DNA from: Tachypleus tridentatus
Taxonomy: Eukaryota
Length of the DNA stretch: 64,000 bases
Assembly (NCBI RefSeq): GCF_004210375.1
Contig: NC_134831.1
Coordinates: forward strand, 98,889,522 to 98,953,521
Direction of reading: 5' to 3'
Shown: positions 34,786 to 58,800 of the stretch, one piece after another
Layout of the letters: every line of letters starts with the position of its first letter
Position numbering within the stretch: the stretch's first letter is position 1
Made by a program: the position numbers and the translations under genes
The notes under the pieces: model-generated
What the model saw: only the letters and a program-made list of their open reading frames with translations
Told to the model about the DNA's origin: nothing
Databases searched by the model: none

Positions 34786-34880
34786 CTGTGGAGGGAAATT
34801 ATAAACATGTAATATGTAAGCTTAGCAGAATTCATGCCATTTACTCTTTCATAGTCTCAGTATTGACAGGTCTCAACAAC

Positions 34881-35352: not shown

Positions 35353-35512
35353 ACAAAGATTGCACTAGGAACAATAGATAATCATTCCTGTACAAAGATT
35401 GCACTAGGAACAATAGATAATCATTCCTGTACAAAGATTGCACTAGGAACAATAGATAATCATTCCTGTACAAAGATTGCACTAGGAACAATAGATAATC
35501 ATTCCTGTATAG
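35353..35512. repeat. Tandem repeat, 39-bp unit (gtacaaagattgcactaggaacaatagataatcattcct), 4 copies. The unit is related to the adjacent 40-bp family.
   Basis: Shares aatcattcctgta with the neighbouring array. Confidence 0.9.
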
Positions 35513-36149
35513 TAATTGTTATTATGGGCCATCATCAAACACTGCTAGTAATGATCCACAGTGATTCTTGTGGTTAGTGTCAACACTAAGATATTTGTAC
35601 ATACCAGATGGGGAATCCTATCCCCAGTAGAGTAATATTCCCCAAGTGTCTTCGATAAAGAGAAACAAAAATCCCTACATTTATTTTCTTATGTTGATCA
35701 CGATGTCTGCTGCAGACAAATATTAGAAATATACAGTTAGCCAATTATTAACACCTTAGTGACAGCAATGCCATGGGTAAATCCTGGTATAATTGCCATG
35801 GCTATGGATCATGAATATGTCATGGAATTCATTGGCTCAAAATACCCTTATGTTTCACTACTTGTATTTATTGATATGTCCATAGTAGAAAGACACTGGA
35901 AGTAAATATTTATCCAGTTATTACTGATTTTATAAGGTTAGGCACATCATTATTGTACAAAGGCACAGACACAGTTACCATAGCTGTAACCTTGAGTACG
36001 TTACAGGATATGTTTTCCTACATGTTTTTTACTCAAAACAACAAATGTACTTTTCAAAGAAATGTAACAGTCACTATTACAAATGGCTGCTTCAGTACTG
36101 CTTCAGAATTAAAGTGATGGTGATAAAAAGATTTATATCATCTTGAGTT

Positions 36150-37790
36150 ACAAAACATGGCATCTCAGTAAACACACCTATTTCCTTCTTTTAAAAGTAA
36201 AGATTTATGTGGTGACTTACAAAACATGGCATCTCAGTAAACACACCTATTTCCTTCTTTTAAAAGTAGAGATTTATGTGGTGACTTACAAAACATGGCA
36301 TCTCAGTAAACACACCTATTTCCTTCTTTTAAAAGTAAAGATTTATGTGGTGACTTACAAAACATGGCATCTCAGTAAACACACCTATTTCCTTCTTTTA
36401 AATGTAAAGATTTATGTGGTGACTTACAAAACATGGCATCTCAGTAAACACACCTATCTCCTTCTTTTAAAAGTAGAGATTTACGTGGTGACTTACAAAA
36501 CATGGCATCTCAGTAAACACACCTATCTCCTTCTTTTAAAAGTAGAGATTTACGTGGTGACTTACAAAACATGGCATCTCAGTAAACACACCTATCTCCT
36601 TCTTTTAAAAGTAGAGATTTACGTGGTGACTTACAAAACATGGCATCTCAGTAAACACACCTATCTCCTTCTTTTAAAGTAGAGATTTATGTGGTGACTT
36701 ACAAAACATGGCATCTCAGTAAACACACCTATCTCCTTCTTTTAAAAGTAGAGATTTACGTGGTGACTTACAAAACATGGCATCTCAGTAAACACACCTA
36801 TCTCCTTCTTTTTTAAAAGTAGAGATTTACGTGGTGACTTACAAAACATGGCATCTCAGTAAACACACCTATCTCCTTCTTTTAAAAGTAGAGATTTACG
36901 TGGTGACTTACAAAACATGGCATCTCAGTAAACACACCTATCTCCTTCTTTTAAAAGTAGAGATTTATGTGGTGACTTACAAAACATGGCATCTCAGTAA
37001 ACACACCTATCTCCTTCTTTTAAAAGTAGAGATTTACGTGGTGACTTACAAAACATGGCATCTCAGTAAACACACCTATCTCCTTCTTTTAAAAGTAGAG
37101 ATTTACGTGGTGACTTACAAAACATGGCATCTCAGTAAACACACCTATCTCCTTTTAAAAGTAGAGATTTATGTGGTGACTTACAAAACATGGCATCTCA
37201 GTAAACACACCTATCTCCTTCTTTTAAAAGTAGAGATTTACGGTGACTTACAAAACATGGCATCTCAGTAAACACACCTATCTCCTTCTTTTAAAAGTAG
37301 AGATTTACGTGGTGACTTACAAAACATGGCATCTCAGTAAACACACCTATCTCCTTCTTTTAAAGTAGAGATTTATGTGGTGACTTACAAAACATGGCAT
37401 CTCAGTAAACACACCTATCTCCTTCTTTTAAAAGTAGAGATTTACGTGGTGACTTACAAAACATGGCATCTCAGTAAACACACCTATCTCCTTTTAAAAG
37501 TAGAGATTTACGTGGTGACTTACAAAACATGGCATCTCAGTAAACACACCTATCTCCTTCTTTTAAAAGTAGAGATTTATGTGGTGACTTACAAAACATG
37601 GCATCTCAGTAAACACACCTATCTCCTTCTTTTAAAAGTAGAGATTTATGTGGTGACTTACAAAACATGGCATCTCAGTAAACACACCTATCTCCTTCTT
37701 TTAAAAGTAGAGATTTACGTGGTGACTTACAAAACATGGCATCTCAGTAAACACACCTATCTCCTTCTTTTAAAAGTAGAGATTTACGTG
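36150..37790. repeat. Tandem minisatellite, 66 to 69-bp unit (gtgacttacaaaacatggcatctcagtaaacacacctatYtccttcttttaaaagtaRagatttaYgtg), about 24 copies.
   Basis: Period about 67 bp. ORFs 36143..36682, 36831..37271 and 37377..37886 are artefacts. Confidence 0.97.
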
Positions 37791-38851
37791 GTTGCTCATA
37801 TTCATATACAATTAGAAACATTATGTTTTAATATACACACAAACGTTTCCTCTGCATTTTTAACAAAAACTTACTTATTTAAGTGACAGAAATAGAATAC
37901 AAAAATTAAAATGTTATACATTAAATTAAACTTCTGCTTAGTAACCATGAGTAAACAGTATAAATATCAACTGGAGTTAGATCCTTCATATTCACAAAAC
38001 TATAAATAATAACAGTCGTGATTTATAATGATACTTGTAGCATTATCCTAATCTATATAATTAACACTAGAATATTCACACTATAGCAAATTTAACATAA
38101 AAAACTTTCAACACTCAATGCTTGTTTCTTATCTCAAACAAACAGAATGTAATAATTTACCAACATTATTAAATAAATCCTAAAAAACTCAGAAATATTT
38201 ACATGTTTAAAGTATTAATGTTATTAATGGCTGGTTTAGTGTTTTATAGCACAAAGCAACTAGGCTATCTGCACCAAACATCCAGTAAAAAGTTAAAATT
38301 AAAATTATTAAAATTCATAAGAAGGAATCAAGGTAAAACAAAACAAAGTTTAATTTTGAATTAAAAACATAAATAACATTAACTCCAATTTTTACATCTA
38401 GCCTACAGCAATAAGAGAAAAACTACAGTAATAACAAGTTGTAAAGGACTTTCTGTAGCATAAATGTAACTATCATAACTTGCCAGGATGACTAACAAGT
38501 AGCTCAAACAGCAGAGTTAGTCACCTGAAGTTGGCCTTTCTTTCCAGTCCTGGTTTTGAGTTATTTGACATTACGGCCATTTTCTAATTTCAAATTGAAC
38601 TAGTGATACTTTAATTCTTAAAAAGGAATCACATTAAAAAGGTCTAATTTATAAATTAACAACTAAATTTAAAAGATTAATGGTCTTTAAAAAACTAAAA
38701 ACATTTGTAAGGTGGACAGTGTCACCATCATCAATGACACTATCTAACATCATGGAAAAACCTTGGGTAAAAACATATTTAAAATGGTGGTTATTAATGG
38801 ACCTTCCATGTTCTGACGAACATTGATATATAAAAACCTAATTATCAGCTG

Positions 38852-39108
38852 TTTGTATTCAATTTTGCACAAAGTTACTTAAAGAATATTTGCACTAGCC
38901 TTCCCTAATTTAGAACAGAAGAGGGAAGGCAACTAGTAAACACCACCTACTCTTGGACTACTATTTTACCAATGAACAGTGGGATTGACCATAACATTAC
39001 AAGGTCCCCACAGCTGAAATGACGAGCATTTGTGTGATAGAAATTCTAACCCACAAACTACAGAATGTGAGTCAAGTGCCCTAACCACCAAGCCAAGTAA
39101 CATTTTAA
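38852..39108 (-). mobile_element. tRNA-derived SINE copy F, diverged.
   Basis: The tail is ttttgcacaaagttac...cttccctaatttagaacagaagagggaaggcaactag and the body is ..ccaatgaacagtgggattgacc.. The head is degenerate. Confidence 0.65.
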
Positions 39109-39420
39109 GTATTATAAACTTCAGACTTTTTGCTGAATTACTGGAGAGTATGTTAAAAATAAGATAACCCATAATGATTTTGTGAATAGTAATATACATA
39201 TTCAAAAATATGTTGTGGCCAACTGATAAATTAGCAAGTTCTGATGTGCTGAATAGGTTACTGAATTAAAGCAGAATACAAGAAATAGTTCCAGGTGTTA
39301 CAAACTTCCCTAATGAGTGCTCAAGTGTAACACACTTTCCCAAGACGAGTCTAACTGACTCAGAATAAAAGTTGAAAAAGTAAACAAGTATATTTCTGTA
39401 AAAAACCTCCAGCGTTACTA

Positions 39421-39556
39421 CATGCAATATTGTCCAGAGTTACAAATACAAAGTTGTCCAGGGTTACTACATACAATGTTGTCCAGGGTTACTACATACA
39501 ATGTTGTCCAGGGTTACTACATACAATATTGTCCAGGGTTACTACATACAATATTG
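39421..39556. repeat. Tandem repeat, 27 to 28-bp unit (acatacaatgttgtccagggttactac), 5 copies.
   Basis: Seen directly in the sequence. Confidence 0.9.
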
Positions 39557-39743
39557 CTTAACTGATTCTTTAAAAAGAAAAAGAGAAAAATACTATTTAT
39601 AAAAACTCTTGTACAGCTACAAGAGCCATTAAGTTTATATCAGATACATCCAAAAAACAGTAAGTATTTTTAGATATAATCTTGTTTAACTCTAGAATTC
39701 AATTTAGTGATATTTGGCTAAAAAGTTAAGTGAAGAAAAATAC

Positions 39744-39970
39744 AGGGAACAAAACATGTCTATAGTCTCCTGAAGTAACACTAATAACATGGAACAAAAC
39801 ATGTCTATAGTCTCCTGAAGTAACACTAATAACATGGAACAAAACACGTCTATAGTCTCCTGAAGTAACACTAATAACATGGAACAAAACACGTCTATAG
39901 TCTCCTGAAGTAACACGAATAACATGGAACAAAACATGTCTATAGTCTCCTGAAGTAACACTAATAACCA
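39744..39970. repeat. Tandem repeat, 45-bp unit (ggaacaaaacatgtctatagtctcctgaagtaacactaataacat), 5 copies. It ends 3 bp from the MVP exon f donor site.
   Basis: Period 45 bp. The last unit runs into catacccttccgg, which is the gtatgg donor on the minus strand. Confidence 0.95.
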
Positions 39971-39973
39971 TAC

Positions 39974-40123
39974 CCTTCCGGTTTTGATGTTCCTGACATA
40001 TATGCCTTCATTTTCATCTAATGGAATAGTGTATCGCTTGGCGATGACTTCAACTTCTACTGGAGGAATATACTCCTCAGGACCACGGATCATCCATTTA
40101 TCACCTGGATTTCTCTTAACAGC
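39974..40123 (-). CDS. MVP: MVP exon f. Encodes [50 protein letters not shown].
   Basis: Acceptor ttattatcatag|GCTGTT and donor GGAAGG|gtatgg. Matches human ..[44 protein letters not shown]. The track ORF 39704..40093 runs on into the adjacent tandem repeat; that extension is an artefact. Confidence 0.9.
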
Positions 40124-40729
40124 CTATGATAATAAAAAAAACATGCTGCACAAAATTTTACACTAAAAATATTCAAACAAAATATTTCAATTACAAATGT
40201 TTTGATACTTTTACAATAAAATAATGTAACTAGGAAATTTACCACATACATATATGTAAACTATTTCTGTAATTTATGTGGAAGGAATGAAAATTATATT
40301 AACTTGTTCAATATGCATGATGTACATGCTGTAACGTATTTACTCTTATGCATTTATTTTAAAGTTTGCTTCAGTTATAAATATATATTCAGAAATGCAT
40401 GTAACTTATATTGTTAAATGTGTATTGTGAAAGTCCTGCCTGTTCTCTAAATTTGTAGAAGATTGTAGTGCATAAAAATCAACAGCGTACTAGGTGTTTA
40501 TGTAATACTAGTTATTGACAGTATTGTTACCAAGTGAACTTCAGAAAATGTCTTTTACAATATTTATAAATCAATGTGGCAAGAGACAAAATAATATTGT
40601 TGGTCTGCCACAATCAGTACACTATAAGCCTTGGGAGCTATAACTGTGATAAACACTTATCAATCAGAAAACTACAGATACTTAACCAGGAACGTTTATA
40701 GAGTTTGAATGTTACAAAACAAAATACAG

Positions 40730-40900
40730 ATCTAAATAATCTGAGGACAAACTATAAAACTAATATTATTTTATTTACAAAAAACAAACATAAAACAGTG
40801 TATTATTGGGCATAAGATATGAAGTGATACATGGATCCTAAATTTGAAACATTTTAAAGACCTAAATTATAAATAAATCATAAAGAAATAATTATGTAAC
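40730..40900. repeat. Dispersed repeat copy. The partner copy lies at about 41800..41970 at roughly 85% identity.
   Basis: The string ..ctgaggacaaactataaaactaatattattttatttacaaaaaacaaacataaaacagtgtattattgggcataagatatgaagtgatac..aaattataaataaatcataaagaaata recurs at 41800..41970. Confidence 0.7.
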
Positions 40901-41334
40901 TCAAGAATTAACTTTGAATGTTAATATTTCTTTAAAAATATCACATACTTTCAATGGAAAAACTTGTGTGAGGAGCAAGAGATACCTTAGTTGTACTGAT
41001 ATCAACATTAAGTTATTCATTCATCGTGAATCGTGCATAAAATATTCAGTTCCAGACCAGATAATGTTGTTTGTAAAACTCTTGTATATAAGCCATTATT
41101 TGTAATAACTGTTATTATAAATTGTATTGTTGCTTGTATATTAAAATATATTTATGTTAAGAAAGAAAACAGCGTGTATCAATCTTACTGGCAAGCATCA
41201 TAAATTTGATAAATATTAACATTCAATTAACTTCTAAATTAAAATTAAAATTTCCAGCTATTGGAAATTGTAAAAATGTACATAACATAATAAATCAGAG
41301 ACTTGTCCTACGTAAATTATAATACATAACAACA

Positions 41335-41470
41335 TACACACTTCAATCAATATTCTTGGTATGTTGTTTTTTAATTGCTACAGCACGTATTGATAAATTA
41401 CCATTATAAAGCTAATTCACATACCAAGAATATTGATTGAAGTGAGTACGTTGTTACAGCAATTAAAAAA
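41335..41470. repeat. Nested inverted repeat / palindrome (cttcaatcaatattcttggtatg ... cataccaagaatattgattgaag, with the outer pair ttttttaattgctacagcacgta / tacgttgttacagcaattaaaaaa).
   Basis: Seen directly in the sequence. The arms are about 23 bp with a roughly 50-bp spacer. Confidence 0.7.
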
Positions 41471-42173
41471 AAATATATTTTTCAAACTTAAATAAACAAA
41501 CAATAAATTACAGAAATGGAATGTCACATAATTTTACAGGACATTAGATAAAACAAATGAATCACATCATAGAAGGATAATGTCAGATTAAACTATTGTT
41601 TCTTCATCATTACATAGTACAGTTAACAAATTAAGAAAAGATTATACTATCACTTAGCGAAGTAGCTAATTCCCTACTCATATATGCTGTATTTCATACA
41701 CCCTATTTTATTTCTGTAATATAAGAAACACTGTGTGCAGTTCACTCAAACTGGATTAATGTCACAAGTGGGCCCAGTTTCAGTCTCAATGATTAAACAC
41801 AAAATAACCTGAGAACAAACAATAAAACTTGTATTTTATTTACAAAAAAACAAACATAAAACAGTATATTACTGAGCATAACATATAAAGTGATACACTT
41901 ATTCTAAATTTGAAAAATTTTAAAGTCCTAAATTATAAATAAATCATAAAGAAATATTTATGTAACTCATGTCTGTAACTTAGCACCATGTATATTCCTT
42001 TAGAGATCAAACCATATAATCAAACATATACTTAAAATTTTGTGATATTTAAAACCTCACATTTAGAAATATTACAATCCACAAATTTATTTATAAAACA
42101 TTAATAATTTGCACAACAAAATTGTGTTTTATTCATGATGAAAGCATAAAATTTGCCAAAAAAAGTACACAAA

Positions 42174-42503
42174 GAGATCACTTTGTGGTAGATGTTGGTA
42201 CCAAGCAGTATTATCTTACTCAGATCACTTTGTGGTATATGTTGGTACCAAGCAGTATTATCTTACTCAGATCACTTTGTGGTAGATGTTGGTACCAAGC
42301 AGTATTATCTTACTCAGATCACTTTGTGGTAGATGTTGGTACCAAGCAGTATTATCTTACTCAGATCACTTTGTGGTATATGTTGGTACCAAGCAGTATT
42401 ATCTTACTCAGATCACTTTGTGGTAGATGTTGGTACCAAGCAGTATTATCTTACTCAGATCACTTTGTGGTAGATGTTGGTACCATGCAGTATTATCTTA
42501 CTC
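42174..42503. repeat. Tandem repeat, 47-bp unit (cagatcactttgtggtagatgttggtaccaagcagtattatcttact), about 7 copies.
   Basis: Period 47 bp. ORF 42122..42535 is an artefact. Confidence 0.95.
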
Positions 42504-42861
42504 TGTATTTGAAACACCCTCTTTCATCTCTGTAATAAATGAAAAACTGTCAAAATAAATATTCAAGCAAAAACTGTCAATAGACTTGAGCTGATTGATG
42601 CCATTTAAGTGATCAAATTAAGATTGATTGGCTATGATTTCAAAAATGTCAAAATTTGCTTTTTGTGTGGTTAAGAATTACCTATTAAATTCTTTTTCTA
42701 TATTTTTTGTCTAATACTGTGTTGTTTTTTTGTATAGCTATAGTTTAGATTATAAGTTACTATTCCATTTGCACTTATTTCATAAAATGCCAAATGCATA
42801 TGTACAAACCAAACTAGTAATTATAACAGTGATGTTGAAAAAACCCACTTGTAGAGAAAAA

Positions 42862-42982
42862 TATATATGTAAAAACGGCTCGTTTAGGTTGAGAAAATTT
42901 TTTACGTAGAGGAGCTAACAACGTTTCGACCTTCCATGTAAAAACTTTTCTCAACCCAAACGAGCTGTTTTTACATATATAT
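42862..42982. mobile_element. Small hairpin (foldback) element with a 37-bp inverted repeat (2 mismatches) around a 47-bp loop.
   Basis: The left arm is atatatatgtaaaaacggctcgtttaggttgagaaaa. The right arm reverse complement is atatatatgtaaaaacagctcgtttgggttgagaaaa. Confidence 0.6.
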
Positions 42983-43129
42983 TTAAACTGGTAATTAATC
43001 ACATAAAACCGAGTGATCAGAATTGAAGTTATAAACAAAAGATATAAAATTATCTATACAAGTGTGAGGGATAAGTTATCAAATTCGATAGAAGAGTGGC
43101 TGGACTGATGGAAGCAAAATGTTGTCACA

Positions 43130-44100
43130 AACTGAGTTCATTCAAACTGGATTAATGTCACAAGTGGTGTACCTGAGGTCCCAGTCTCAGAACCTTTTTT
43201 ATTTTCATCAGTGACACAAATGAAGGAATGATCAATAAGTTATTTAACTTTACAGATGATATTAAGGACTTGGATGTTGCTAGCTGTGAAGAGGATGCTT
43301 CTGATCTATAAAAATATTTAGATCATTTAGTAAATAAATGTCAGATGGGTTTTAATTATACTAAATGCAAGATACATGTGGGTAATCACAATTCAAATTA
43401 TAAGCATAATTTGGATAGAAATAAACTAAACAGTGTTATGAAGGAAAGTGTTCTTGGTGTAATAACCACGATTAATCAGTATCTGAAACCATCCAAGCAA
43501 TGTCCTGTTGCTTGTGGTGGAGCAAATAGTATTTTGGGTTGTATGTACAGAAATACTGAATACAAGTCTAAATATGTTATAATTTCATTGTTTAGATCAC
43601 TGGTTAGCCCATATTTGAAATACTGAGTTCAGTTTTGGGCTCCTTACCTAAGGAAAAACATTGAATTGTTGGAAAGGGTTCAGAGAAAGGTAACTAGGAT
43701 GGTGTCTGGGAGGGAGTGTTGTTATGACTTTCAAATTATTTTCTCTTAATTAAAGAAGAGTTTGGACAGTTTGATTGAAATGTTTGAAATTATAGAGAGA
43801 ACTGATAGTGTTGATGTATTATCTATTTTTATATTTAACAATGAAAATAGTAGTTAAAGGGGACACAAATATAACTTTTGGCAGGGTAAGAATCATTATC
43901 AGCTAGACAGTTTCATTTTTCTAACAGGTTGGGTGCCCTTTGGAATGAATTGTCTTCATACATTATAGAGGTAATAAATTTAAGTAAGCTTAAATTAAGT
44001 ATATGAATGATAAGGGTTGGCTTTAAGATTTTTAAAAAAATATTTTAGCTTAATTTAGAAGATGGAATAGTTGAGATGGAACAACAGGTCCCTATTGTCC
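43130..44100 (+). mobile_element. CR1-like LINE 3' fragment (RT C-terminal region and 3' end), plus strand.
   Basis: The translation reads ...INKLFNFTDDIKDLDV...LDHLVNKCQMGFNYTKCKIHVGNHNSNYKHNL...SLFRSLVSPYLKY*VQFWAPYLRKNIELLERVQRKVTRMVSG, about 80% similar to the minus-strand copy at 20560..21010. Confidence 0.75.
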
Positions 44101-44277
44101 TAAAATGTTATATTATAAGCTATCAAGATTCTCAGGTACACTGAGATTCAAGAATACTGCTATAATATAAGCAAAAACCATTATTCAGATAACAGTATAT
44201 AAATGCTACAAATGACTACTTTTCACAGTTATAGTACCCATATTGGCTAACCCGAATTGTGCCACAAAGTTTGTTAC

Positions 44278-44409
44278 CGGCAGGACAGTATCATCTGTAA
44301 AAGTTTCTTTGGCTCGTAGGATCAATCCTTCATTTTCTCCCAGAACACAGATGTCTTGAATACCATTTTCTAGTCTTTCTCCAGGCATAAGAAAGAAAGA
44401 TATTTCACC
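44278..44409 (-). CDS. MVP: MVP exon e. Encodes [44 protein letters not shown].
   Basis: Acceptor atcaatag|GGTGAA and donor CTGCCG|gtaaca. Matches human [41 protein letters not shown]... Confidence 0.85.
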
Positions 44410-44654
44410 CTATTGATAAAAAAAACAGCTACAAACATGTGCTTATAAAACATAATTCTTTACAAAATCAACAACGGTACGTGTGTAAGGAAAGATTCAG
44501 ATATTTTACTCATTTCATGACAAATTTATGATACAAAGAAAAATATATATTATTAAAACTCCACAGAGATTGTTGTTTGTGATGTTAAAAACTGTGTTTT
44601 ACCATCAGTTAAAGGAAACAACTGTAACAGTTCCATAAATTCTCATCAGTATTT

Positions 44655-46750
44655 CAATTTCTTATACAGTGGGCTTATGAAATAAGAGAGGCAGTTATAA
44701 TTAAAACATTCAACATACTTTAACCAATTTCTTATGCATACAGTGGGCTTATGAACTAAGAGACACAGTTATAATTAAAACATTCAACATACTTAACCAA
44801 TTTCTTATGCATACAGTGGGCTTATGAACTAAGAGACACAGTTATAATTAAAACATTCAACATACTTTAACCAATTTCTTATGCATACAGTGGGCTTATG
44901 AACTAAGAGACAGTTATATTAAAACATTCAACATACTTTAACCAATTTCTTATGCATACAGTGGGCTTATGAACTAAGAGACACAGTTATAATTAAAACA
45001 TTCAACATACTTAACCAGTTTCTTATGCATACAGTGGGCTTATGAAATAAGAGACACAGTTATAATTAAAACATTAAACATACTTTAACCAATTTCTTAT
45101 GCATACAGTGGGCTTATGAACTAAGAGACAGTTATATTAAAACATTCAACGTACTTTAACCAATTTCTTATGCATACAGTGGGCTTATGAACTAAGAGAC
45201 AGTTATAATTAAAACATTCAACATACTTTAACCAATTTCTTATACATACAGTGGGCTTATGAAATAAGAGACACAGTTATAATTAAAACATTCAACATAC
45301 TTAACCAATTTCTTATACATACAGTGGGCTTATGAAATAAGAGACACAGTTATAATTAAAACATTCAACATACTTAACCAATTTCTTATTCATACAGTGG
45401 GCTTATGAACTAAGAGACAGTTATATTAAAACATTCAACATACTTTAACCAATTTCTTATGCATACAGTGGGCTTATGAACTAAGAGACACAGTTATAAT
45501 TAAAACATTCAACATACTTAACCAGTTTCTTATGCATACAGTGGGCTTATGAACCAAGAGACACAGTTATAATTAAAACATTAAACATACTTTAACCAAT
45601 TTCTTATGCATACAGTGGGCTTATGAACTAAGAGACAGTTATATTAAAACATTCAACGTACTTTAACCAATTTCTTATGCATACAGTGGGCTTATGAACT
45701 AAGAGACAGTTATAATTAAAACATTCAACATACTTTAACCAATTTCTTATACATACAGTGGGCTTATGAAATAAGAGACACAGTTATAATTAAAACATTC
45801 AACATACTTAACCAATTTCTTATACATACAGTGGGCTTATGAAATAAGAGACACAGTTATAATTAAAACATTCAACATACTTAACCAATTTCTTATTCAT
45901 ACAGTGGGCTTATGAACTAAGAGACAGTTATATTAAAACATTCAACATACTTTAACCAATTTCTTATGCATACAGTGGGCTTATGAACTAAGAGACACAG
46001 TTATAATTAAAACATTCAACATACTTAACCAGTTTCTTATGCATACAGTGGGCTTATGAACCAAGAGACACAGTTATAATTAAAACATTAAACATACTTA
46101 ACCAATTTCTTATACATACAGTGGGCTTATGAAATAAGAGACACAGTTATAATTAAAACATTAAACATACTTTAACCAATTTCTTATGCATACAGTGGGC
46201 TTATGAACTAAGAGACAGTTATATTAAAACATTCAACATACTTTAACCAATTTCTTATGCATACAGTGGGCTTATGAACTAAGAGACACAGTTATAATTA
46301 AAACATTCAACATACTTAACCAATTTCTTATACATACAGTGGGCTTATGAAATAAGAGACACAGTTATAATTAAAACATTCAACATACTTAACCAATTTC
46401 TTATGCATACAGTGGGCTTATGAAATAAGAGACACAGTTATAATTAAAACATTCAACATACTTTAACCAATTTCTTATTCATACAGTGGGCTTATGAACT
46501 AAGAGACAGTTATATTAAAACATTCAACATACTTTAACCAATTTCTTATACATACAGTGGGCTTATGAAATAAGAGACACAGTTATAATTAAAACATTCA
46601 ACATACTTTAACCAATTTCTTATACATACAGTTGGCTTATGAACTAAGAGACACAGTTATAATTAAAACATTCAACATACTTTAACCAATTTCTTATACA
46701 TACAGTGGGCTTATGAAATAAGAGACAGTTATATTAAAACATTCAACATA
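44655..46750. repeat. Tandem minisatellite, 70 to 76-bp unit (ttaaccaatttcttatRcatacagtgggcttatgaaMtaagagacacagttataattaaaacattcaacatact), about 29 copies. It is contiguous with the 3' end of MVP exon d.
   Basis: On the minus strand each unit reads ...AAGAAATTGGTTAAAGTATGTTGAATG..., which is the last 15 nt of exon d plus its GTATGT donor. Confidence 0.95.
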
Positions 46751-46751
46751 C

Positions 46752-46988
46752 TTTAACCAATTTCTTTTGGCCTAGCTGAGGGGTCCCATCTTCATTAAGA
46801 GGATCAAGAATAACACAGTACTGACGCTTAGATAATGTTGTAATAGATACCACACCGACCACCTGTTCATACACACCCGGTATGTAAGTTTCTGTGTCAG
46901 TCATTTTGATCAACCACTCCTGTCCATTTCTTCTTTCGACTCCCAGCTCATCACAAAATGTACAAGTCGCCCTTACGTGTACTGCTTC
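46752..46988 (-). CDS. MVP: MVP exon d. Encodes [79 protein letters not shown].
   Basis: Acceptor tctgtttcag|GAAGCAG and donor GGTTAAA|gtatgt (phase 0). Matches human [79 protein letters not shown]. Confidence 0.9.
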
Positions 46989-47568
46989 CTGAAACAGACC
47001 CAAGTTTACTAATATAAGTTTGATATGTCAGCATGTGAAATGAATAAGCAACAACAACAACAAAAAACAGAAGTGAAAATGTTATACTTTGAAAGTCACG
47101 AAAAACAAATTTACACTTGTTATAAAAACAACAGTGTATGAAGTGAAAAATAATTCTCAGATGAATTTTGATGAATGGTAACAAGACCACCTGTGAGGTC
47201 AACAAAAGTACACACGTTTGTGTATAAAGTGCTTCATATAATCCAATGTTCAAATAGCTAAGGTTACTGGGAGTTCCACATCTCTTAATATTTGTTTTCA
47301 AAAACACTTAATAGGTTTACTCTGCTGACATATTATTTTTCAGAATTTTCAGATTTTAAACTTTCAAATACTGACACAGCTTTTACTTTATGATCAATGT
47401 GCATTATCTGTGTGCAGCAGGAAACAACTAAATAGTTTAAAAAGAAACATGTTATTTATGTGTTGGTTCCATGTTGAGTCTTACATGGTGATGACCGTAA
47501 CTAACCTGCTTTTCTCATAATCATGCATCGTAAAGTAAAATATAATTGGTGGGGAAAAAAAGAAAAAA

Positions 47569-48030
47569 GGTCAAACATTGTAAAAACAGCAAAATAAGCT
47601 AAAAACAAACATTAGTTTATATCAAAGGTCAAACACTGTGAAAACAGCAAAATAAGCTAAAAACAAACATGAGTTTATATCAAAGGTCAAACACTGTGAA
47701 AACAGCAAAATAAGCTAAAAACAAACATTAGTTTATATCAAAGGTCAAACACTATGAAAACAGCAAAATAAGCTAAAAACAAACATGAGTTTATATCAAA
47801 GGTCAAACACTATGAAAACAGCAAAATAAGCTAAAAACAAACATGAGTTTATATCAAAGGTCAAACACTGTGAAAACAGCACAATAAGCTAAAAACAAAC
47901 ATTAGTTTATATCAAAGGTCAAACACTGTGAAAACAGCACAATAAGCTAAAAACAAACATTAGTTTATATCAAAGGTCAAACACTGTGAAAACAGCAAAA
48001 TAAGCTAAAAACAAACATTAGTTTATATCA
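47569..48030. repeat. Tandem repeat, 59-bp unit (gtcaaacactgtgaaaacagcaaaataagctaaaaacaaacattagtttatatcaaag), about 8 copies.
   Basis: Period 58 to 59 bp. Confidence 0.95.
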
Positions 48031-48201
48031 AGGTTTAATAAATATTTATGTCAGTTAACAGTCTTTTCATTATGTGACATGATGGATCATAAAATTGCGG
48101 AATTATTATATATGCAGAAGTTTTCATATTGGTACTTAAAATACAGGAATGGAAATACATTTAGTGCTGCATGTCTTTTCCTTCCAAATCACAGTAGTTA
48201 C

Positions 48202-48428
48202 CTTTTCTGTCAAAACATATGCATTAACAATATCCACAATTTCTTCATAAGCTCCAGGTAGATAAGCACCTATCTTTCTGACAAGCCACTCCTCTCCACA
48301 CACCCTTATCTTTCCACCTCTGTCTCTTGTCTCTGTACAAGCTCGAAGTTTTAAAGCCTGATTCGGTTTGATTACAAAAGCTCTCACTGTTTCCACAACT
48401 TCAACCTCCTTACAAGGAATGTATGTCC
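48202..48428 (-). CDS. MVP: MVP exon c. Encodes (G)[75 protein letters not shown].
   Basis: Acceptor ..ttaacatag|GGACATAC and donor GAAAAG|gtaact. Matches human [76 protein letters not shown]. Confidence 0.9.
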
Positions 48429-48430
48429 CT

Positions 48431-49452
48431 ATGTTAAAAAATAAATATCAAACATCCATTGGTGATGTATGTTCCTATATAACAGAATAAATATCAAACA
48501 TCCATTGGTTGCTGTATAACACTATGTTACAGAATAAATATCAAACATCCATTGGTTGATGTATAACACTATGTTACAGAATAAATATAAACATCCATTG
48601 GTTGATGTATAATACTATGTTACAGAATAAATATCAAACCTCCATTGGTTAATTATGTTCCTATGTTACAGAATAAATATCAAACGTTCATTGGTTGCTG
48701 TATAACACTATGTTAGAAAATAAATATCAAACATTCATTGGTTGCTATATAACACTACGTTACAAAATAAATATCAAACCTCCATTGGTTGATTATGTTC
48801 TTATGTTACAGAATAAATATCAAACATTCATTGGTTGCTGTATAACACTATGTTACAAAATAAATATCAAACATCCATTGGTTGATGTATAACACTATGT
48901 TAGAAAATAAATATCAAACCTCCATTGGTCACTGTATAACACTATGTTACAGAATAAATATCAAACCTCCATTGGTTGCTGTATAACACTATGTTACAAA
49001 ATAAATATCAAACATCCATTGGTTGCTGTATAACACTATGTTACAAAATAAATATCAAACATTCATTGGTTGCTGTATAACACTATGTTACAGAATAAAT
49101 ATCAAATATTCATTGGTTGCTGTATAACACTATGTTACAAAATAAATATCAAACCTCCATTGGTTGCTGTATAACACTATGTTAGAAAATAAATATAAAA
49201 CCTCCACTGGTTGCTGTATAATACTATGTTACAGAATAAATATCAAACATTCATTGGTTGCTGTATAACACTATGTTACAAAATAAATATCAAACCTCCA
49301 TTGGTTGATGTATAACACTATGTTACAGAATAAATATCAAACCTCCACTGGTTGCTGTATAACACTATGTTACAAAATAAACATCAAACATCCATTGATT
49401 GCTGTATAACACTATGTTACAGAATAAATATCAAACCTCCACTAGTTGCTGA
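48431..49452. repeat. Tandem minisatellite, 47-bp unit (tatgttacagaataaatatcaaacatccattggttgctgtataacac), about 21 copies. It starts immediately upstream (in transcript sense) of the MVP exon c acceptor.
   Basis: On the minus strand the units contain gatatttattctgtaacatag, which copies the polypyrimidine tract and AG acceptor. The second unit also copies the first 10 nt of the exon (GAACATACAT against GGACATACAT). Confidence 0.95.
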
Positions 49453-49573
49453 AACAGTTCTCAATGACAATATGATTACCTTTCAAATAAGATAATAAAC
49501 AGCCAGAGATTCTTAAGTTGTAAGTTGCAATTTCAAGATGGAAAGAGTGAATTTTTTTAGATAACATTTAAAT

Positions 49574-49860
49574 ACAGTGGAACCCCTCTAAGCGGCCACC
49601 CCTCAGATTCGGTCACCCCTTGAAAGTGGTCATTCAATCACAGTCCCTTTTTTTGTTTACATAATCCCTAATTATGTACAGTGGAACCTCTCTAAGCGGC
49701 CACCCCTCAGATTCGGTCACCCCTTGAAAGTGGTCATTCAATCACAGTCCCTTTTTTTGTTTACATAATCCCTAATTATGTACAGTGGAACCCCTCTAAT
49801 CAGGCCAGTTTGTCTCAGTCCCGAAGGTGGCTACTTTAGAGGGGTTCCACTGTAATAGCA
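49574..49860. repeat. 104-bp unit repeated about 2.7 times (acagtggaacccctctaagcggccacccctcagattcggtcaccccttgaaagtggtcattcaatcacagtccctttttttgtttacataatccctaattatgt). It ends in a perfect 17-bp inverted repeat hairpin at 49783..49852.
   Basis: Units start at 49574, 49678 and 49782. The inverted repeat is cagtggaacccctctaa ... ttagaggggttccactg. Confidence 0.85.
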
Positions 49861-51229
49861 AATTTCTGCTGTATCAGATACATTAAATTTGAAAAGATAA
49901 AGATGAAAATAAAAAGAATTTTTTTCATACATGGCTATCTTATAGTAACATATTCTTGTCATTTGTTTCTTTCATAGAGGGAGCTGGTGGTATAAGTGAT
50001 GATAAAACTTATATTTAATAATTTGGGCCTTGAACACCTAAAAAGTTCCAAAAAATTTGACATCATTTATGTGGAATACTAGACTCATATGTGCAAACTA
50101 ATAAACATTTCTTGTGTAAACCTAACAGTGAGTGGTTAATAAAGCTAAAACAAGTTTACTTTTAAATTAAGGATTTTAAACCAGAAAAGAGATAAAACTT
50201 TTAACTACACTTTGACAATCCTAGTGACTGATGATAATATCCATACAGTATTATCTACCATAAAACCTGGATAACTTGAGTCATATTAATATAGATATAT
50301 GCAAAAGTAATAAACTGTGTAATTAAAACAAATGACAACTTTAAATTTTTTTACAAAATATTTTAGCAGCATGAACTGAACATTTATTATACCTGGAAAC
50401 CCTGTCTTAGACAAGTTATAATACAAAGGAATATATTTTGTAATTCTTTAGTTTTGCTTTGGCCAGACCTTATCTAAAAATAAAATCTAATTTTCAATAT
50501 ATTTTCTATTATACAGAAGAGTTCTTATTTTAAAAAAAAGGCATTTAATACATTATAACACTGATTCAAAATTTTTTTACCCCATGAACTGGTAAAATAT
50601 TTGTCAAAAACTCGGGGCCATTGAAAGAATCCTTTTAATTTTGCTTCCTAATTTATTTTCTTCTGAGAAGTTTTGAAGTATAAGTTATCATGATCAACAA
50701 TGTTATGATAAACTACAAAGGGCAAACACAAATTATAAAGTTAACCCTAAATTAATTTTTTTATAAACATTTTTATTAATTTTCTCCTGTCTTTTTCACC
50801 CTGAACATTTCTACAGAACAGAACAACACATACACAGGTCAGTGGTAAGGAACCACTACAATAACAGACTTTTATTTAAAAAGTATATTTATTAATTACC
50901 AATTTATCCAAAATGGACCTGCATTAAAAATATAAAAAAATTAGTTTATAAAATACATTAAATATTTCACGCATTTTAGAGCAAATTTTATTGGAATATA
51001 TTTAAATAACAGCTGCATCTTAAACAAGAAATTCCACAATGTATACCTCTAATAAGTACTCCTGCACCACCTTATCAATATTCAATGTTAATCTACAACA
51101 GATTAGTTATTCTTTACAGTTAATCTTGTAATTAACAAAAACAAAACCACTACACCTTTGATACATCTAATGAGTAATTTGTTCTATCAGTCAGTTGATA
51201 TAAAAAAATAAAATTAAAACTATTACAAC

Positions 51230-51350
51230 CTGGGCCTTCAAACAGCCACTCATCACCAGCAACTTTCTTCTCGTATCTATCCTTGAAATCCCTGAGAGCT
51301 CGAAGCCTAAGTGCTGTGTTTGAAGGTACAACTTTTAAAGGTGTAATATC
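51230..51350 (-). CDS. MVP: MVP exon b. Encodes [40 protein letters not shown](G).
   Basis: Acceptor tttttttag|GATATT and donor CCAG|gttgta. The phase continues into exon c. Matches human DITPLQVVLPNTALHLKAL...[13 protein letters not shown]. Confidence 0.85.
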
Positions 51351-53186
51351 CTAAAAAAATGTTTGAAATGTTCATAAAATATGCACAGATTATATATTTA
51401 AATTTTTTTATGCTTGAACACTCAGATAAAACCACTAACATCTCAGTCTTGATTAGTATTAGTCTAATACAAGGATACAGTGATAAATTATTTAGAGTGC
51501 TATAACACTCATATTATACATCTTCAATAGACTGCTTTTAAATAAATTATGAGCAGTGTTTTTAGGTTCATTCACCAAGTTTGACCACTCTTCACAAACT
51601 TAAAAAATAATTATTTTTCTGCCTATTAATGTGGAGTTTTGTCAATTTAAAAAATGCAATATTTTTCCTTTTTTTAAGTCATACTTTTTTTAAAAAACAT
51701 TGTAAACAAATTATCATTGAAGATTAAAATCATAAATATAGATTACCTATTTTATTCAAAAACAAAAGCAAACTCCAAACACCATTAGAGTTTTTTGTCA
51801 AAACATGAACAATAACACTGCACAACAATTGTTTTGAAAAGTTTTGCTTCCTGAAAAGTGTTTGCTGATTGTAACAGGTACCTGGTGGGTATGCACAAAT
51901 ATAGTTTTGGTTTTACTTCATCACATAGCAACTCTGAGTAACAGACAATTAACTGTTTATCGGCAATAACGTATTTAATTGCATTTATGTTTCTAATATG
52001 CTATTAAGTTTAACATAATTAAAAGTGTTTTGCTCCTGATTTTCATTTGTATTCAATGTCCGGTGCATCACGTTGCAGTGTCCAACAGTAGTCAGCAAGC
52101 ATTGACGGATTCCAGTTGCCCTGATATCGTTTCTCCATTGTAGCAATGTCCTTGTAAAACTGAAGTTTTTGATGAAATGGTACATGATGGGCAAATTTGT
52201 TCAAGAAGCAAAAACTTTGTTGTGCAGTGTAACCATTGTTTCTATAATATCTCCTGGCTAATCAACTTAAAAAAAATTCTGAAAGAACACAATGAATCTA
52301 GAAATATTAATTAGCATAAGACACAAGAAGCAAACTAAATAAATTAAAATTCCATCAAAAAACTATTAAACACCAATAAAGAATCTTGGAATTATGGTGC
52401 TTTCTTTTGACAGAAGAGTAAGAAATACAAAGCCAACCTCAAGCTAGGTTTAAAATAAAATAATACTATGTTTTTGAGATTTCACCATTTGCACTTTAAA
52501 TGAGAGAGATAAAATATCTATATCATGTTACAAAAAATACATTTTTTAAACTATATCATTTAACAATGACTAGATTTTTGGCAAAACACTATATCTGTTG
52601 CATCATTGAAATACCAATACAAAATGAAGAAAAGGAGGTAGGACATCAATCTTTTCTTGTCCCAATCATTGCTACATCTTTCTAATATATTGTGGTCCTG
52701 TTGATGTGACTAGTGGTCCTATTTGTTAATATTCATTTCAACAAAAAATATTGAGATAAATGAAACACTTTTTTCATTTGAAATAAAAATCATATAATGT
52801 CAGCTTGCTCTGAATCGTACTGGGGACCTAAATAGTTGTGTGATAAAATTTCCTTACATTAGGTACTAATAAAGAAACTATTACAGCTGGTATGAACTGC
52901 TAACATGTGCATCACAGAATTAACCATGCTTAACTGAGAATCGCAAATAAGAGCAACTATAACTACTGCATAAATATTTCTGCATAATGAAGTCATAATT
53001 CTTACAACTTTTCTTTTTACTTGGATATACAATAAGAATATTTACATTAAAGAATTTTTTATGTTTGAAAAATACTTATATTTTTAATTCAATTCTTTGT
53101 AGTTTGGTTTGACACCAGAATTTCAAAATCCCAATTTTCTTGATCACATCCAAACAGAGTTTTATATCAATACATTAAATGCTTAC

Positions 53187-55470: not shown

Positions 55471-55825
55471 TTCTGATAAAAATTAGCAAAAAAATGATTT
55501 GCTATATGCAAACTAGACAGATATTGCATCTATGATGAACAGAGACCTAAACACCATTAAACTTGTACATCAGATATTTAAGATAAAATCAAATTTAAAA
55601 CAATAATAATAATAAAATAGTGCTAAAATACAACAGGCCACCTATGTTCTAGACTTATTAAAAAAATAAAATAAAATAAATAAATAAAAAACTTATGAAA
55701 GAACAATATAAATGGACATTGCCCTGAAAAGGGCCACATTTAAAGTTGTGCTATTACTTCAGCCATTTTGTGTTTACTCTAAATGTATTAATCAGGCCAT
55801 TCCAACTAAGAAATGGAAGGAGGAA

Positions 55826-58800
55826 GAGATCTATTGTACTTAACCCTCCTTGGTATACAAATATATATACCAAATACATAGAGAGAGAGGTCTAGTGTAC
55901 CTAACCCTCCTGGGTATACAAATGTATATACCAAATACAGAGAGAGAGAGGTCTAGTGTACCTGAGCCTCCTGGGTATACAAATATATATACCAAATATC
56001 TAGAGAGAGAGAGAGAGGTCTAGTGTACCTGATCCTCCTGGGTATACAAATATATATACTAAATACCTAGAGAGAGAGAGGTCTAGTGTACCTAACCCTC
56101 CTGGGTATACAAATATATATACCAAATACATAAAGAGAGAGAGAGGTCTAGTTTACCTGACCCTCCTGGGTATACAAACATATATACCCAAATACCTAGA
56201 GAGAGAGAGAGGTCTAGTGTACCTCACCCTCCTGGGTATACAAATATATATACCAAAATACCTAGAGAGAGAGAGGTCTAGTGTACCTGACACTCCTGGG
56301 TATACAAATATATATACCAGATACATAGAGAGAGAGGGGTCCAGTGTACCTGACCCTCCTGGGTATACAAATATATATACCAGATACATAGAGAGTGAAG
56401 TCCAATGTACCTGACCCTCCTGGGTATACAAATATATATACCCAAATACCTACAGAGAGAGAGACATCTAGTGTACCTGACCCTCATGGGTATACAAATA
56501 TATATACCAAAATACCTAGAGAGAGAGAGGTCTAGGATACCTGACCCTTCTGGGTATACAAATATATATACCAAAACACCTAGAGAGAGAGGGGTCTAGT
56601 GTACCTGACCCTCCTGGGTACACAAATATATATACCAAATACCTAGAGAAAGAGAGAGGGTCTAGTGTACTGACCCTCCTGGGTATACAAATATATATAC
56701 CAAATACCTAGAGAGAGAGTCTAGTGTACCTGACCCTCCTGGGTATACAAATATATATACCAAATACCTAGAGAGAGAGAGTCTAGTGTACCTGACCCTC
56801 CTGGGTATACAAATATATATACCAAAATACCTAGAGAGAGAGAGAAGTCTAGTGTACCTGACCCTCCTGGGTATACAAATATATATACCAAAATACCTAG
56901 AGAGAGAGGTCTAGTGTACCTGACCCTCCTGGGTACACAAATATATATACCAAATACCTAGAGAGAGAGGAGGTCTAGTGTACCTGACCCCCTCCTGGGT
57001 ATACAAATATATATACCAAAACACCTAGAGAGAGAGAGAGAGGTCTAGTGTACCTGACCCTCCTGGGTATACAAATATATATACCAAATACCTAGAGAGA
57101 GAGGTCTAGTGTACCTGACCCTCCTGGGTATACAAATATATATACCAAATACCTAAGAGAGAGAGAGGTCTAGTGTACCTGACCCTCCTGGGTATACAAA
57201 TATATATACCAAATACCTAGAGAGAGAGAGGTCTAGTGTACCTGACCCTCCTGGGTATACAAATATATATACCAAATACCTAGAGAGAGAGGTCTAGTGT
57301 ACCTGACCCTCCTGGGTATACAAATATATATACCAAATACCTAGAGAGAGAGAGAGGTCTAGTGTACCTGACCCTCCTGGGTATACAAATATATATACCC
57401 AAATACCTAGAGAGAGAGAGAGTCTAGTGTACCTGACCCTCCTGGGTATACAAATATATATACCAAATACCTAGAGAGAGAGAGGTCTAGTGTACCTGAC
57501 CCTCCTGGGTATACAAATATATATACCAAATACCTAGAGAGAGAGAGAGGTCTAGTGTACCTGACCCTCCTGGGTATACAAATATATATACCAAATACCT
57601 AGAGAGAGAGAGGTCTAGTGTACCTGACCCTCCTGGGTATACAAATATATATACCAAATACCTAGAGAGAGAGAGGTCTAGTGTACCTGACCCTCCTGGG
57701 TATACAAATATATATACCAAATACCTAGAGAGAGAGAGAGAGAGTCTAGTGTACCTGACCCTCCTGGGTATACAAATATATATACCAAATACCTAGAGAG
57801 AGAGAGGTCTAGTGTACCTGACCCTCCTGGGTATACAAATATATATACCAAATACCTAGAGAGAGAGAGGTCTAGTGTACCTGACCCTCCTGGGTATACA
57901 AATATATATACCAAATACCTAGAGAGAGAGAGTCTAGTGTACCTGACCCTCCTGGGTATACAAATATATATACCAAATACCTAGAGAGAGAGAGAGGTCT
58001 AGTGTACCTGACCCTCCTGGGTATACAAATATATATACCAAATACCTAGAGAGAGAGAGAGTCTAGTGTACCTGACCCTCCTGGGTATACAAATATATAT
58101 ACCAAATACCTAGAGAGAGAGAGAGTCTAGTGTACCTGACCCTCCTGGGTATACAAATATATATACCAAATACCTAGAGAGAGAGAGAGGTCTAGTGTAC
58201 CTGACCCTCCTGGGTATACAAATATATATACCAAATACCTAGAGAGAGAGAGAGTCTAGTGTACCTGACCCTCCTGGGTATACAAATATATATACCAAAA
58301 TACCTAGAGAGAGAGAGGTCTAGTGTACCTGACCCTCCTGGGTATACAAATATATATACCAAATACCTAGAGAGAGAGGGTCTAGTGTACCTGACCCTCC
58401 TGGGTATACAAATATATATACCAAATACCTAGAGAGAGAGAGGTCTAGTGTACCTGACCCTCCTGGGTATACAAATATATATACCAAATACCTAGAGAGA
58501 GAGAGGTCTAGTGTACCTGACCCTCCTGGGTATACAAATATATATACCAAATACCTAGAGAGAGAGAGAGGTCTAGTGTACCTGACCCTCCTGGGTATAC
58601 AAATATATATACCAAATACCTAGAGAGAGAGAGGTCTAGTGTACCTGACCCTCCTGGGTATACAAATATATATACCATAAAACCTAGAGAGAGAGAGAGA
58701 GTCTAGTGTACCTGACCCTCCTGGGTATACAAATATATATACCAAAATACCTAGAGAGAGAGAGAGGTCTAGTGTACCTGACCCTCCTGGGTATACAAAT

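What the first reader, a model, noticed from the sequence alone, without database searches (positions are those of the whole stretch)
44655..46760. About 29 tandem copies of the MVP exon d 5' splice-site junction form a 2.1-kb minisatellite contiguous with the real exon
On the minus strand every 70 to 76 bp unit contains AAGAAATTGGTTAAA|GTATGTTGAATGTTTTAAT. This is identical for at least 30 nt to the real junction, where exon d ends ...CAAAAGAAATTGGTTAAA and the intron begins GTATGTTGAATG. The array starts at the exon/intron boundary itself. It therefore arose by repeated duplication of a segment spanning the boundary. It puts about 29 consensus-quality cryptic donors directly downstream of the authentic one. 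This could affect splice-site choice, produce decoy U1 binding, or make the array length-polymorphic in the population.
Basis: seen in the sequence. Interest (0 to 1): 0.85.

Follow-up and report, generated by a model that had tools for sequence, protein, structure and literature searches.

The report
Splice-donor minisatellite in horseshoe-crab MVP intron
A 2.1-kb tandem repeat in a horseshoe-crab major vault protein gene formed when a 73-bp piece straddling an exon/intron border was copied about 29 times, leaving 28 spare copies of the splice signal in the intron; this layout is already known from several human genes such as coagulation factor VII.

Summary
The minus strand at 44655..46766 carries 29 head-to-tail units of 70-74 nt. 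Each starts with the last 15 nt of MVP exon d followed by the donor GTATGT (GTACGT in two units). The window is Tachypleus tridentatus DNA: the spliced protein is 99% identical to the NCBI model, which uses the same exon d/e join. In Limulus polyphemus the same intron is 304 bp in the ortholog and 212 bp in the paralog. The ortholog aligns collinearly with the Tachypleus intron collapsed to one unit. The array is therefore a lineage-specific, in-situ amplification of a boundary-spanning segment, bounded by a 9-nt direct repeat (AAGAAATTG).

Only 12 are exact over at least 34 nt. They match the authentic site in quality (6/9 consensus), so they are not consensus-quality.

This architecture is a described class: human F7 IVS7, IFI6, CBS, LMNB2 and PDGF (PMC1557585). 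In those genes the most upstream donor is used, alone or together with one or two proximal pseudo-sites. I infer the same here. Read-through from exon d hits a stop after two codons.

New context: 41% of the MVP intron sequence is minisatellite, and two further arrays abut splice junctions. One of them repeats an acceptor about 21 times. Verdict: a new member of a known kind, of modest interest.

The parts
46752..46988 (-). MVP exon d (237 nt, ..[11 protein letters not shown]...LGQKKLVK), phase-0 end
   Evidence: tblastn and splice model. Identical to T. tridentatus MVP-like P0092.
46746..46754 (-). Authentic 5' splice site AAA|GTATGT (cleavage between 46752 and 46751)
   Evidence: Matches 6/9 of CAG|GTAAGT. 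Same position in the Limulus ortholog and paralog.
44655..46766 (-). Minisatellite of 29 units (70-74 nt) plus a 9-nt partial unit. Each unit is the last 15 nt of exon d plus the first 55-59 nt of the intron. Unit 1 holds the authentic donor; units 2-29 hold pseudo-donors.
   Evidence: TRF; unit dissection.
46758..46766 (-). Left copy of the bounding 9-nt direct repeat AAGAAATTG, inside exon d (codons K-K-L)
   Evidence: Limulus has AAGAAACTG here.
44655..44663 (-). Right copy of the bounding direct repeat AAGAAATTG (the partial 30th unit), followed by unique AAATACTGATG
   Evidence: Limulus has AAGGAAGTG at the homologous intron position, 7/9 identical to its own exon copy.
45025..46038 (-). 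Two copies of a 7-unit higher-order repeat of about 507 bp (units 11-17 and 18-24; unit types KDFFLMN / KDFFLMO)
   Evidence: Unit-type string ABCDEFGHIJKDFFLMNKDFFLMOKHPGQ. Eight of 22 unit pairs are identical at lag 7. TRF also reports periods 218 and 291.
44410..44654 (-). Unique remainder of intron d-e, ending ..TTTTTTTATCAATAG, collinear with the Limulus intron
   Evidence: Alignment; 79% identity to Limulus.
44278..44409 (-). MVP exon e ([16 protein letters not shown]...TVLP)
48429..49451 (-). Related feature: 47-bp array of about 22 units, most ending ..TTATT[C/T]TGTAACATAG. This repeats the 3' splice site of exon c about 21 times upstream of the authentic acceptor (AG at 48430-48429; exon c is 48202..48428).
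   Evidence: Single copy in Limulus.
39742..39968 (-). Related feature: 45-bp x5 array starting 5 nt after the first base of the intron that follows exon f (intron starts at 39973). The GT is not included in the unit.
   Evidence: Single copy in Limulus.

Best explanation
This is a lineage-specific intronic minisatellite in the Tachypleus tridentatus major vault protein gene. It arose in place when a segment of about 71 nt (the last 15 nt of exon d plus the first 56 nt or so of an ancestral intron of about 300 nt) was tandemly duplicated. The duplication was probably mediated by slippage or unequal exchange between two 9-nt direct repeats (AAGAAATTG) flanking the segment. Unequal crossing-over then expanded and homogenised the array to 29 units. 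The exon is untouched because unit 1 is the original copy.

The 28 downstream copies of the donor are pseudo-sites. The productive mRNA uses the most upstream donor, as in the human F7-type junction-spanning VNTRs. Any use of a pseudo-donor would leave a stop codon two codons after exon d (KKLVK-V-C-stop), and such transcripts would be expected to be degraded by NMD. The array is most likely a neutral or slightly deleterious by-product of an unusually high rate of minisatellite birth in this gene and lineage. It is not an adapted device.

Shown: the structure, the origin in place, the lineage specificity, the flanking repeat, and the use of the first donor in the annotated protein. Inferred: the slippage mechanism, the silence of the pseudo-sites, NMD, and neutrality.
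For: - Array structure and junction content.
- Gene, species and boundary: the spliced 13-exon ORF is 99% identical to T. tridentatus MVP-like P0092, which has the same KKLVK|GEISFF join.
- Intron size in Limulus: 304 bp in the ortholog and 212 bp in the paralog, against 2342 bp here.
- Collinearity: the Tachypleus intron collapsed to one unit aligns collinearly with the Limulus ortholog, which carries the unit once and has no Ns.
- Age: units are 94.6% identical to each other but only 80-88% identical to the Limulus copy. The unique part of the intron is 79% identical to Limulus.
- Bounding repeat: present as 9/9 in Tachypleus and as an imperfect 7/9 repeat at the homologous positions in Limulus.
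- Recent unequal exchange: the 7-unit higher-order repeat. Unit 1 shares its derived 71-nt form with 7 internal units.
- Not dispersed: the unit is not found elsewhere in the window.
- Part of a wider pattern: at least six arrays in this gene have single-copy collinear counterparts in Limulus.
- Read-through stop.
- Precedent for upstream-donor use in such arrays: PMC1557585.
- No masking RNA structure: z = 0.59.
Against: - No transcript data were available, so use of the pseudo-donors cannot be excluded. In human IFI6 and CBS, two pseudo-sites are used as well as the authentic donor.
- Classical duplicated-site experiments sometimes favour the donor nearest the acceptor. The last pseudo-donor here lies about 310 nt from the acceptor, in the ancestral intron context.
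- The Limulus assembly used (GCA_000517525.1) is old and could in principle collapse arrays, although it does represent a 59-bp x15 array elsewhere in the same gene.
- Three of 19 arrays abutting junctions is more than chance predicts (P about 0.006, post hoc). A purely neutral, position-blind model does not explain this.
Confidence: 0.78

Rival explanations
1. The array is a functional cis-element. Its 28 extra U1-binding sites could act as decoys or enhancers that tune use of the weak authentic donor. They could protect the lengthened intron from premature cleavage and polyadenylation (telescripting). Or they could divert a regulated fraction of transcripts into unproductive, NMD-targeted isoforms to set MVP levels.
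For: The donor core GT is kept in all 29 units, and 27 of 29 keep GTATGT. The authentic donor lacks G at -1 and A at +4 (6/9 consensus). Two other arrays in the gene also sit on splice junctions.
Against: Units are young and homogenised, so conservation of the donor reflects recent copying, not selection. The array is absent from both Limulus copies, which splice the same junction without it. Eleven units have already lost an exon-side base, and other positions vary at similar rates. In F7 no autonomous regulatory element was found in the repeat (PMC1557585, outline, section 10). Most arrays in the gene are far from junctions.
Confidence: 0.1
2. Junction-abutting arrays arise from a non-random, splice-site- or transcription-associated mutational process in this lineage. 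One candidate is polymerase pausing or R-loops at exon/intron borders promoting microhomology-mediated template switching. On this view the location at the donor is mechanistic, not coincidental.
For: Three of 19 intronic arrays have an end within 5 nt of a junction, against 0.43 expected; permutation P about 0.006. All three are in-situ amplifications flanked by short direct repeats.
Against: This is a single gene, and the test and threshold were chosen after seeing the data. About a third of the expectation comes from the short d-e intron. The three arrays have different registers relative to the splice site: 15 nt into the exon, 5 nt into the intron, and flush with the acceptor AG (its last unit resembling the first ~10 nt of the exon). 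The larger Limulus arrays in the two homologous genes lie away from exon boundaries.
Confidence: 0.1
3. The array, or its copy number, is an assembly artefact.
For: Tandem arrays are error-prone in assemblies. No raw reads or second Tachypleus assembly could be examined (one search found no indexed locus).
Against: There are 17 distinct unit types arranged in an ordered higher-order pattern. About 20 other arrays with different units occur in the same window. The flanks are collinear with Limulus.
Confidence: 0.02

Closest known systems
Human F7 (coagulation factor VII) IVS7 37-bp VNTR (Borensztajn et al. 2006, PMC1557585)
   Same: An intronic minisatellite whose first monomer spans the exon/intron boundary, so the authentic donor is followed by sequence-identical pseudo-donors.
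   Different: F7 has a 37-bp unit (4 nt exon + 33 nt intron) and 5-9 copies. It has been shown experimentally to use only the most upstream site, and it is known to be polymorphic. Here the unit is 73 bp (15 nt exon + about 58 nt intron) with 29 copies, in a chelicerate. Eleven units have a 1-nt exon-side deletion. Splicing and polymorphism are untested.
Human IFI6 (interferon-inducible 6-16) intron 2 repeat and CBS IVS13 minisatellite (cited in PMC1557585)
   Same: Large numbers of repeated donors (25 pseudo-sites in IFI6; 15-20 repeats in CBS), comparable to the 28 here.
   Different: [quoted passage not shown] Here any pseudo-donor use leaves a stop two codons after exon d.
Human LMNB2 (100 bp x 10-15) and PDGF intron 4 (81 bp x 16-18) junction-spanning minisatellites (cited in PMC1557585)
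   Same: Similar unit length and copy number. In those genes only the authentic donor is reported to be used, which is the behaviour inferred here.
   Different: Different genes and lineage. For the horseshoe-crab array the ancestral single-copy state and the flanking direct repeat are visible in an outgroup.
Intron gain by tandem duplication of an AGGT-containing exon segment (Rogers model; for example the Drosophila cases in PMC2891723, seen in the listing but not read)
   Same: Tandem duplication involving an exon segment and splice signals.
   Different: The intron here is old. It is shared with both Limulus paralogs and with other taxa. Its ends are not duplicated exon sequence. The duplication lengthened an existing intron and did not create one.

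Membership tests
Junction-spanning intronic minisatellite (F7 IVS7 type) | Head-to-tail tandem array of 10-100 bp units lying in an intron | tested here: met
   TRF: period 73, 28.9 copies, 94% matches. Lies in intron d-e of a 13-exon splice model.
Junction-spanning intronic minisatellite (F7 IVS7 type) | The first monomer contains the end of the exon and the authentic 5' splice site | tested here: met
   Unit 1 runs 46766..46696 and includes the last 15 nt of exon d plus GTATGT. The boundary is confirmed by P0092.
Junction-spanning intronic minisatellite (F7 IVS7 type) | The donor sequence is repeated in downstream monomers | tested here: met
   28 pseudo-donors: 15 AAA|GTATGT, 11 TAA|GTATGT, 2 AAA|GTACGT. 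Twelve are exact over at least 34 nt.
Junction-spanning intronic minisatellite (F7 IVS7 type) | Pseudo-donors normally silent, or only the most proximal ones used; the most upstream site is selected | not testable with these tools
   No transcript reads were available. Indirect evidence only: the annotated and conserved protein uses the first donor, and read-through meets a stop after 2 codons.
Junction-spanning intronic minisatellite (F7 IVS7 type) | Copy-number polymorphism (VNTR behaviour) | not testable with these tools
   Only one Tachypleus haplotype was available (one search found no other locus). The higher-order repeat implies recent unequal exchange.
Intron created by tandem duplication (Rogers model) | Intron absent at this position in close relatives | tested here: not met
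   An intron at the same phase-0 position occurs in the Limulus ortholog and paralog and in about 13 homolog fragments ending KKLVK|V...
Transposon-derived or dispersed satellite | Unit present at other loci, or not homologous to the ancestral local sequence | tested here: not met
   No copies outside the array in the 64-kb window. The unit is single-copy and collinear in the orthologous Limulus intron. A genome-wide check was not possible.
Structured or known non-coding RNA array | Match to an RNA family, or unusually stable fold | tested here: not met
   No Rfam hit in the window. Fold z-score 0.59.

The most novel reading that the evidence does not exclude
Minisatellite birth in the Tachypleus lineage may be biased towards exon/intron junctions. 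In this one gene, three of 19 arrays sit on a junction: one repeats a donor 28 times, one repeats an acceptor about 21 times, and one starts at intron +6. That would point to a splice-site- or transcription-coupled duplication mechanism, or to selection for backup or decoy splice signals. It would also make horseshoe crabs a natural system with many multi-copy identical splice sites for testing how 5' and 3' sites are chosen.
Probability: 0.12. Interest if true: 0.6.

Novelty: new member of a known kind. Interest (0 to 1): 0.3.

Why it matters
The finding adds a large, well-resolved invertebrate example to a small set of natural loci where many sequence-identical donors compete for one acceptor. 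Those loci have been used to argue for 5'-to-3' 'first site wins' selection of splice donors. Here the outgroup shows the pre-expansion state and the short direct repeats that probably seeded the duplication, so the origin is unusually clear.

The same gene also carries the mirror case, with about 21 repeated acceptors upstream of the real one. It is 41% minisatellite in its introns, a feature that the horseshoe-crab genome papers I checked do not mention.

Practical consequences are modest. The array is a likely length-polymorphic marker. It is a hazard for gene prediction and read mapping. It also carries a small mutational risk, because unequal exchange could bring an AA|GT variant unit next to exon d and frameshift MVP.

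Tried and rejected
1. Recent intron gain created by the duplication. I considered this after most homolog fragments read straight through LVK|GEK. I rejected it because about 13 fragments and both Limulus genes have the intron at this position.
2. Transposon or dispersed-satellite origin. Rejected.
3. Known RNA family or stable RNA structure masking the pseudo-donors. Nothing found.
4. Fetching the T. tridentatus locus from the public collection to compare copy number. The protein is not indexed, so there was no second haplotype or assembly.
5. Identifying the species from the exon d/e peptide alone. This gave only hits of at most 81% identity. My hand translation also had about 6 wrong residues (GDLYIL instead of ATCTF). 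The full spliced protein solved it.
6. Looking for junction-abutting arrays in the two Limulus genes. I found only a weak 22-nt imperfect repeat at one donor.
7. Horseshoe-crab genome papers. They do not discuss minisatellites.
8. A literature search for acceptor-side precedents failed on a syntax error and I did not repeat it.
It served only to locate exons, which were later confirmed with database proteins.

Full report
**Observation**

Tandem Repeats Finder reports a single array at 44664..46766 with period 73, 28.9 copies and 94% matches. On the minus strand, anchoring on AAGAAA[T/C]TGGTTAA splits it into 29 units of 70-74 nt, followed by a 9-nt partial unit (AAGAAATTG) that ends at 44655. 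The 27-nt junction motif occurs 18 times with at most 1 mismatch, no shuffle of the window gave a match (mean 0), and every match lies inside the array.

**Gene and boundary**

Reading the flanks gives 13 exons, all bounded by GT-AG, which join into one open frame. That protein is 99% identical to NCBI 'major vault protein-like [Tachypleus tridentatus]' (P0092). It is 89% and 81% identical to two Limulus polyphemus copies. P0092 contains the same ...QKKLVK|GEISFF... join.

Exon d therefore ends at 46752, and the intron starts at 46751 with GTATGT. Exon e starts at 44409, after ...ATCAATAG. Repeat homology reaches 15 nt into exon d, to 46766.

**Unit anatomy**

- Unit 1 holds the authentic donor, so there are 28 pseudo-donors.
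- Donor 9-mers across all 29 units: AAA|GTATGT in 16 (including the authentic one), TAA|GTATGT in 11 (a 1-nt deletion in the exon-derived A-run), and AAA|GTACGT in 2.
- Twelve pseudo-units are exact over at least 34 nt around the junction. The rest differ by one or two changes.
- The site matches 6 of 9 positions of CAG|GTAAGT. That is ordinary for this gene (range 5-8), so the pseudo-donors are of authentic quality, not consensus quality.
- There are 17 unit types. Their order (ABCDEFGHIJKDFFLMNKDFFLMOKHPGQ) shows a duplicated 7-unit block of about 507 bp. This is the signature of recent unequal exchange.
- Unit 1 shares its derived 71-nt form with seven internal units, so it takes part in the exchange.
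- Reading from exon d into the intron gives KKLVK-V-C-stop. Any mRNA spliced from a pseudo-donor would therefore carry an early stop.

**Origin**

The Limulus ortholog (L001) and paralog (L002) were retrieved. Both have an intron at exactly this position, but it is only 304 bp and 212 bp, against 2342 bp in the window. The Tachypleus intron collapsed to one unit aligns collinearly with the Limulus ortholog. Limulus carries AAGAAACTGGTTAAA|GTATGTTTAATG...TATATGT once, followed by AAGGAAGTGAAATAATGA, where Tachypleus has AAGAAATTGAAATACTGA. There are no Ns in that Limulus intron.

The ancestral segment was thus flanked by an imperfect 9-nt direct repeat, 7/9 in Limulus and 9/9 in Tachypleus. That is the expected substrate for slippage or unequal exchange.

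Units are 94.6% identical to one another but only 80-88% identical to the Limulus copy. The unique part of the intron is 79% identical between the species. The amplification, or its last homogenisation, therefore postdates the Tachypleus/Limulus split.

An idea I entertained was that the duplication created the intron, because most homolog fragments from other animals read straight through LVK|GEK. This is rejected: about 13 fragments end KKLVK|V..., and both Limulus paralogs have the intron.

**Context**

The array is not special in kind within this gene. Nineteen arrays make up 41% of the 34.8 kb of MVP intron sequence. At least six of them have a single-copy, collinear counterpart in the Limulus ortholog.

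Two more arrays abut splice junctions:

- A 47-bp array of about 22 units at 48429..49451. Most of its units end ...TTATT[C/T]TGTAACATAG, which repeats the acceptor of exon c about 21 times upstream of the real one.
- A 45-bp x5 array at 39742..39968, which starts 5 nt after the first base of the intron that follows exon f.

Both are single-copy in Limulus and are flanked by short direct repeats. Placing arrays at random within their introns gives 0.43 expected with an end within 5 nt of a junction, against 3 observed (P about 0.006). This is suggestive only. It is one gene, and the test was designed after seeing the data.

**Comparison with what is known**

Borensztajn et al. [quoted passage not shown] Their examples are:

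| Gene | Unit | Copies | Donor use |
|---|---|---|---|
| F7 IVS7 | 37 bp | 5-9 | only the most upstream donor |
| IFI6 / 6-16 | not given | 25 pseudo-sites | authentic plus the two proximal pseudo-sites |
| CBS IVS13 | not given | 15-20 repeats | authentic plus two pseudo-sites |
| LMNB2 | 100 bp | 10-15 | authentic donor only |
| PDGF intron 4 | 81 bp | 16-18 | authentic donor only |

With 50 constructs they showed that the F7 pseudo-sites are functional but never compete with the most upstream site. They interpreted this as 5'-to-3' scanning, with an exon-definition component.

The structural membership criteria are met here. The behavioural ones (silence of the pseudo-sites, length polymorphism) could not be tested.

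**Mechanism proposed**

The steps I could show are the in-situ amplification of a boundary-spanning segment and the use of the first donor in the annotated, conserved protein. The steps I infer are these:

- The origin was microhomology-mediated.
- The pseudo-donors bind U1 but lose to the first site, through co-transcriptional, exon-definition or 'first site' selection.
- Rare mis-splicing is removed by NMD.
- The array is neutral or slightly deleterious.

No masking RNA structure is predicted (z = 0.59), and there is no Rfam match in the window.

One point against easy silence is that the last pseudo-donor lies about 310 nt from the acceptor. That is exactly the ancestral intron configuration, so an intron-definition machinery might favour it. 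Only transcript data can settle this.

**Limits**

- No Tachypleus reads, second assembly or population data were available.
- The Limulus assembly is an older one, although it does resolve a 59-bp x15 array in the same gene.
- The horseshoe-crab genome papers I checked do not discuss minisatellites.

**Verdict**

The functional speculation is untested, and the precedents do not favour it. This is a new, large, non-mammalian member of a known kind. The minisatellite-rich gene and the acceptor-side mirror array are the more noteworthy side observations. Interest 0.3.

Noticed in passing
window 48429..49451 (minus strand): A 47-bp array of about 22 units repeats the polypyrimidine tract and AG acceptor of MVP exon c about 21 times upstream of the authentic acceptor. 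The last unit resembles the first 10 nt or so of the exon. It is single-copy in Limulus. This is the mirror image of the donor array.
   Followed up: partly
window 39742..39968 (minus strand): A 45-bp x5 array begins 5 nt after the first base of the intron downstream of MVP exon f (donor GG|GTATGG at 39974|39973). The GT itself is not in the unit. It is single-copy in Limulus.
   Followed up: partly
window 16319..53186: Nineteen different minisatellite arrays (periods 25-104) make up 41% of MVP intron sequence. At least six are in-situ amplifications of sequence that is single-copy in the Limulus ortholog. Three of the 19 have an end within 5 nt of a splice junction (expected 0.43, post hoc P about 0.006).
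   Followed up: partly
window 55825..63995: A satellite of at least 8.2 kb with a 63-bp unit (127.7 copies) runs off the window end. The first coding exon of MVP (aa 1-50 of P0092) is not in the window, so this satellite probably lies in MVP intron 1.
   Followed up: no
window 9209..11520: A 51-bp x45, very AT-rich array (GC about 22%) lies downstream of the MVP stop (about 16030). It generates a spurious 139-aa repetitive ORF at 9455..9874. No other gene was recognised in 1..16000.
   Followed up: no
window units 9-11, 17-18, 24-25 of the array (about 46185..45966, 45605..45459, 45098..44952): Two minor unit variants, C at exon position -9 (CTG Leu codon) and T at intron +8, equal the Limulus state, whereas exon d and unit 1 carry the derived bases. 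The array may preserve ancestral alleles, or these may be recurrent mutations.
   Followed up: partly
L001 27814..27862: In the Limulus ortholog a weak 22-nt x2.2 imperfect repeat (78% matches) straddles the donor of the exon homologous to exon k (..ATTGAAGCA|GTAGGTC). It may be chance or a nascent junction-spanning duplication.
   Followed up: partly
MVP intron d-e position across taxa (proteins P0001-P0091): The phase-0 intron after ..KKLVK is present in horseshoe crabs and in about 13 unidentified homolog fragments. It is absent (one continuous ORF) from most other fragments, including a shark. This intron has therefore been lost or gained in some animal lineages.
   Followed up: no
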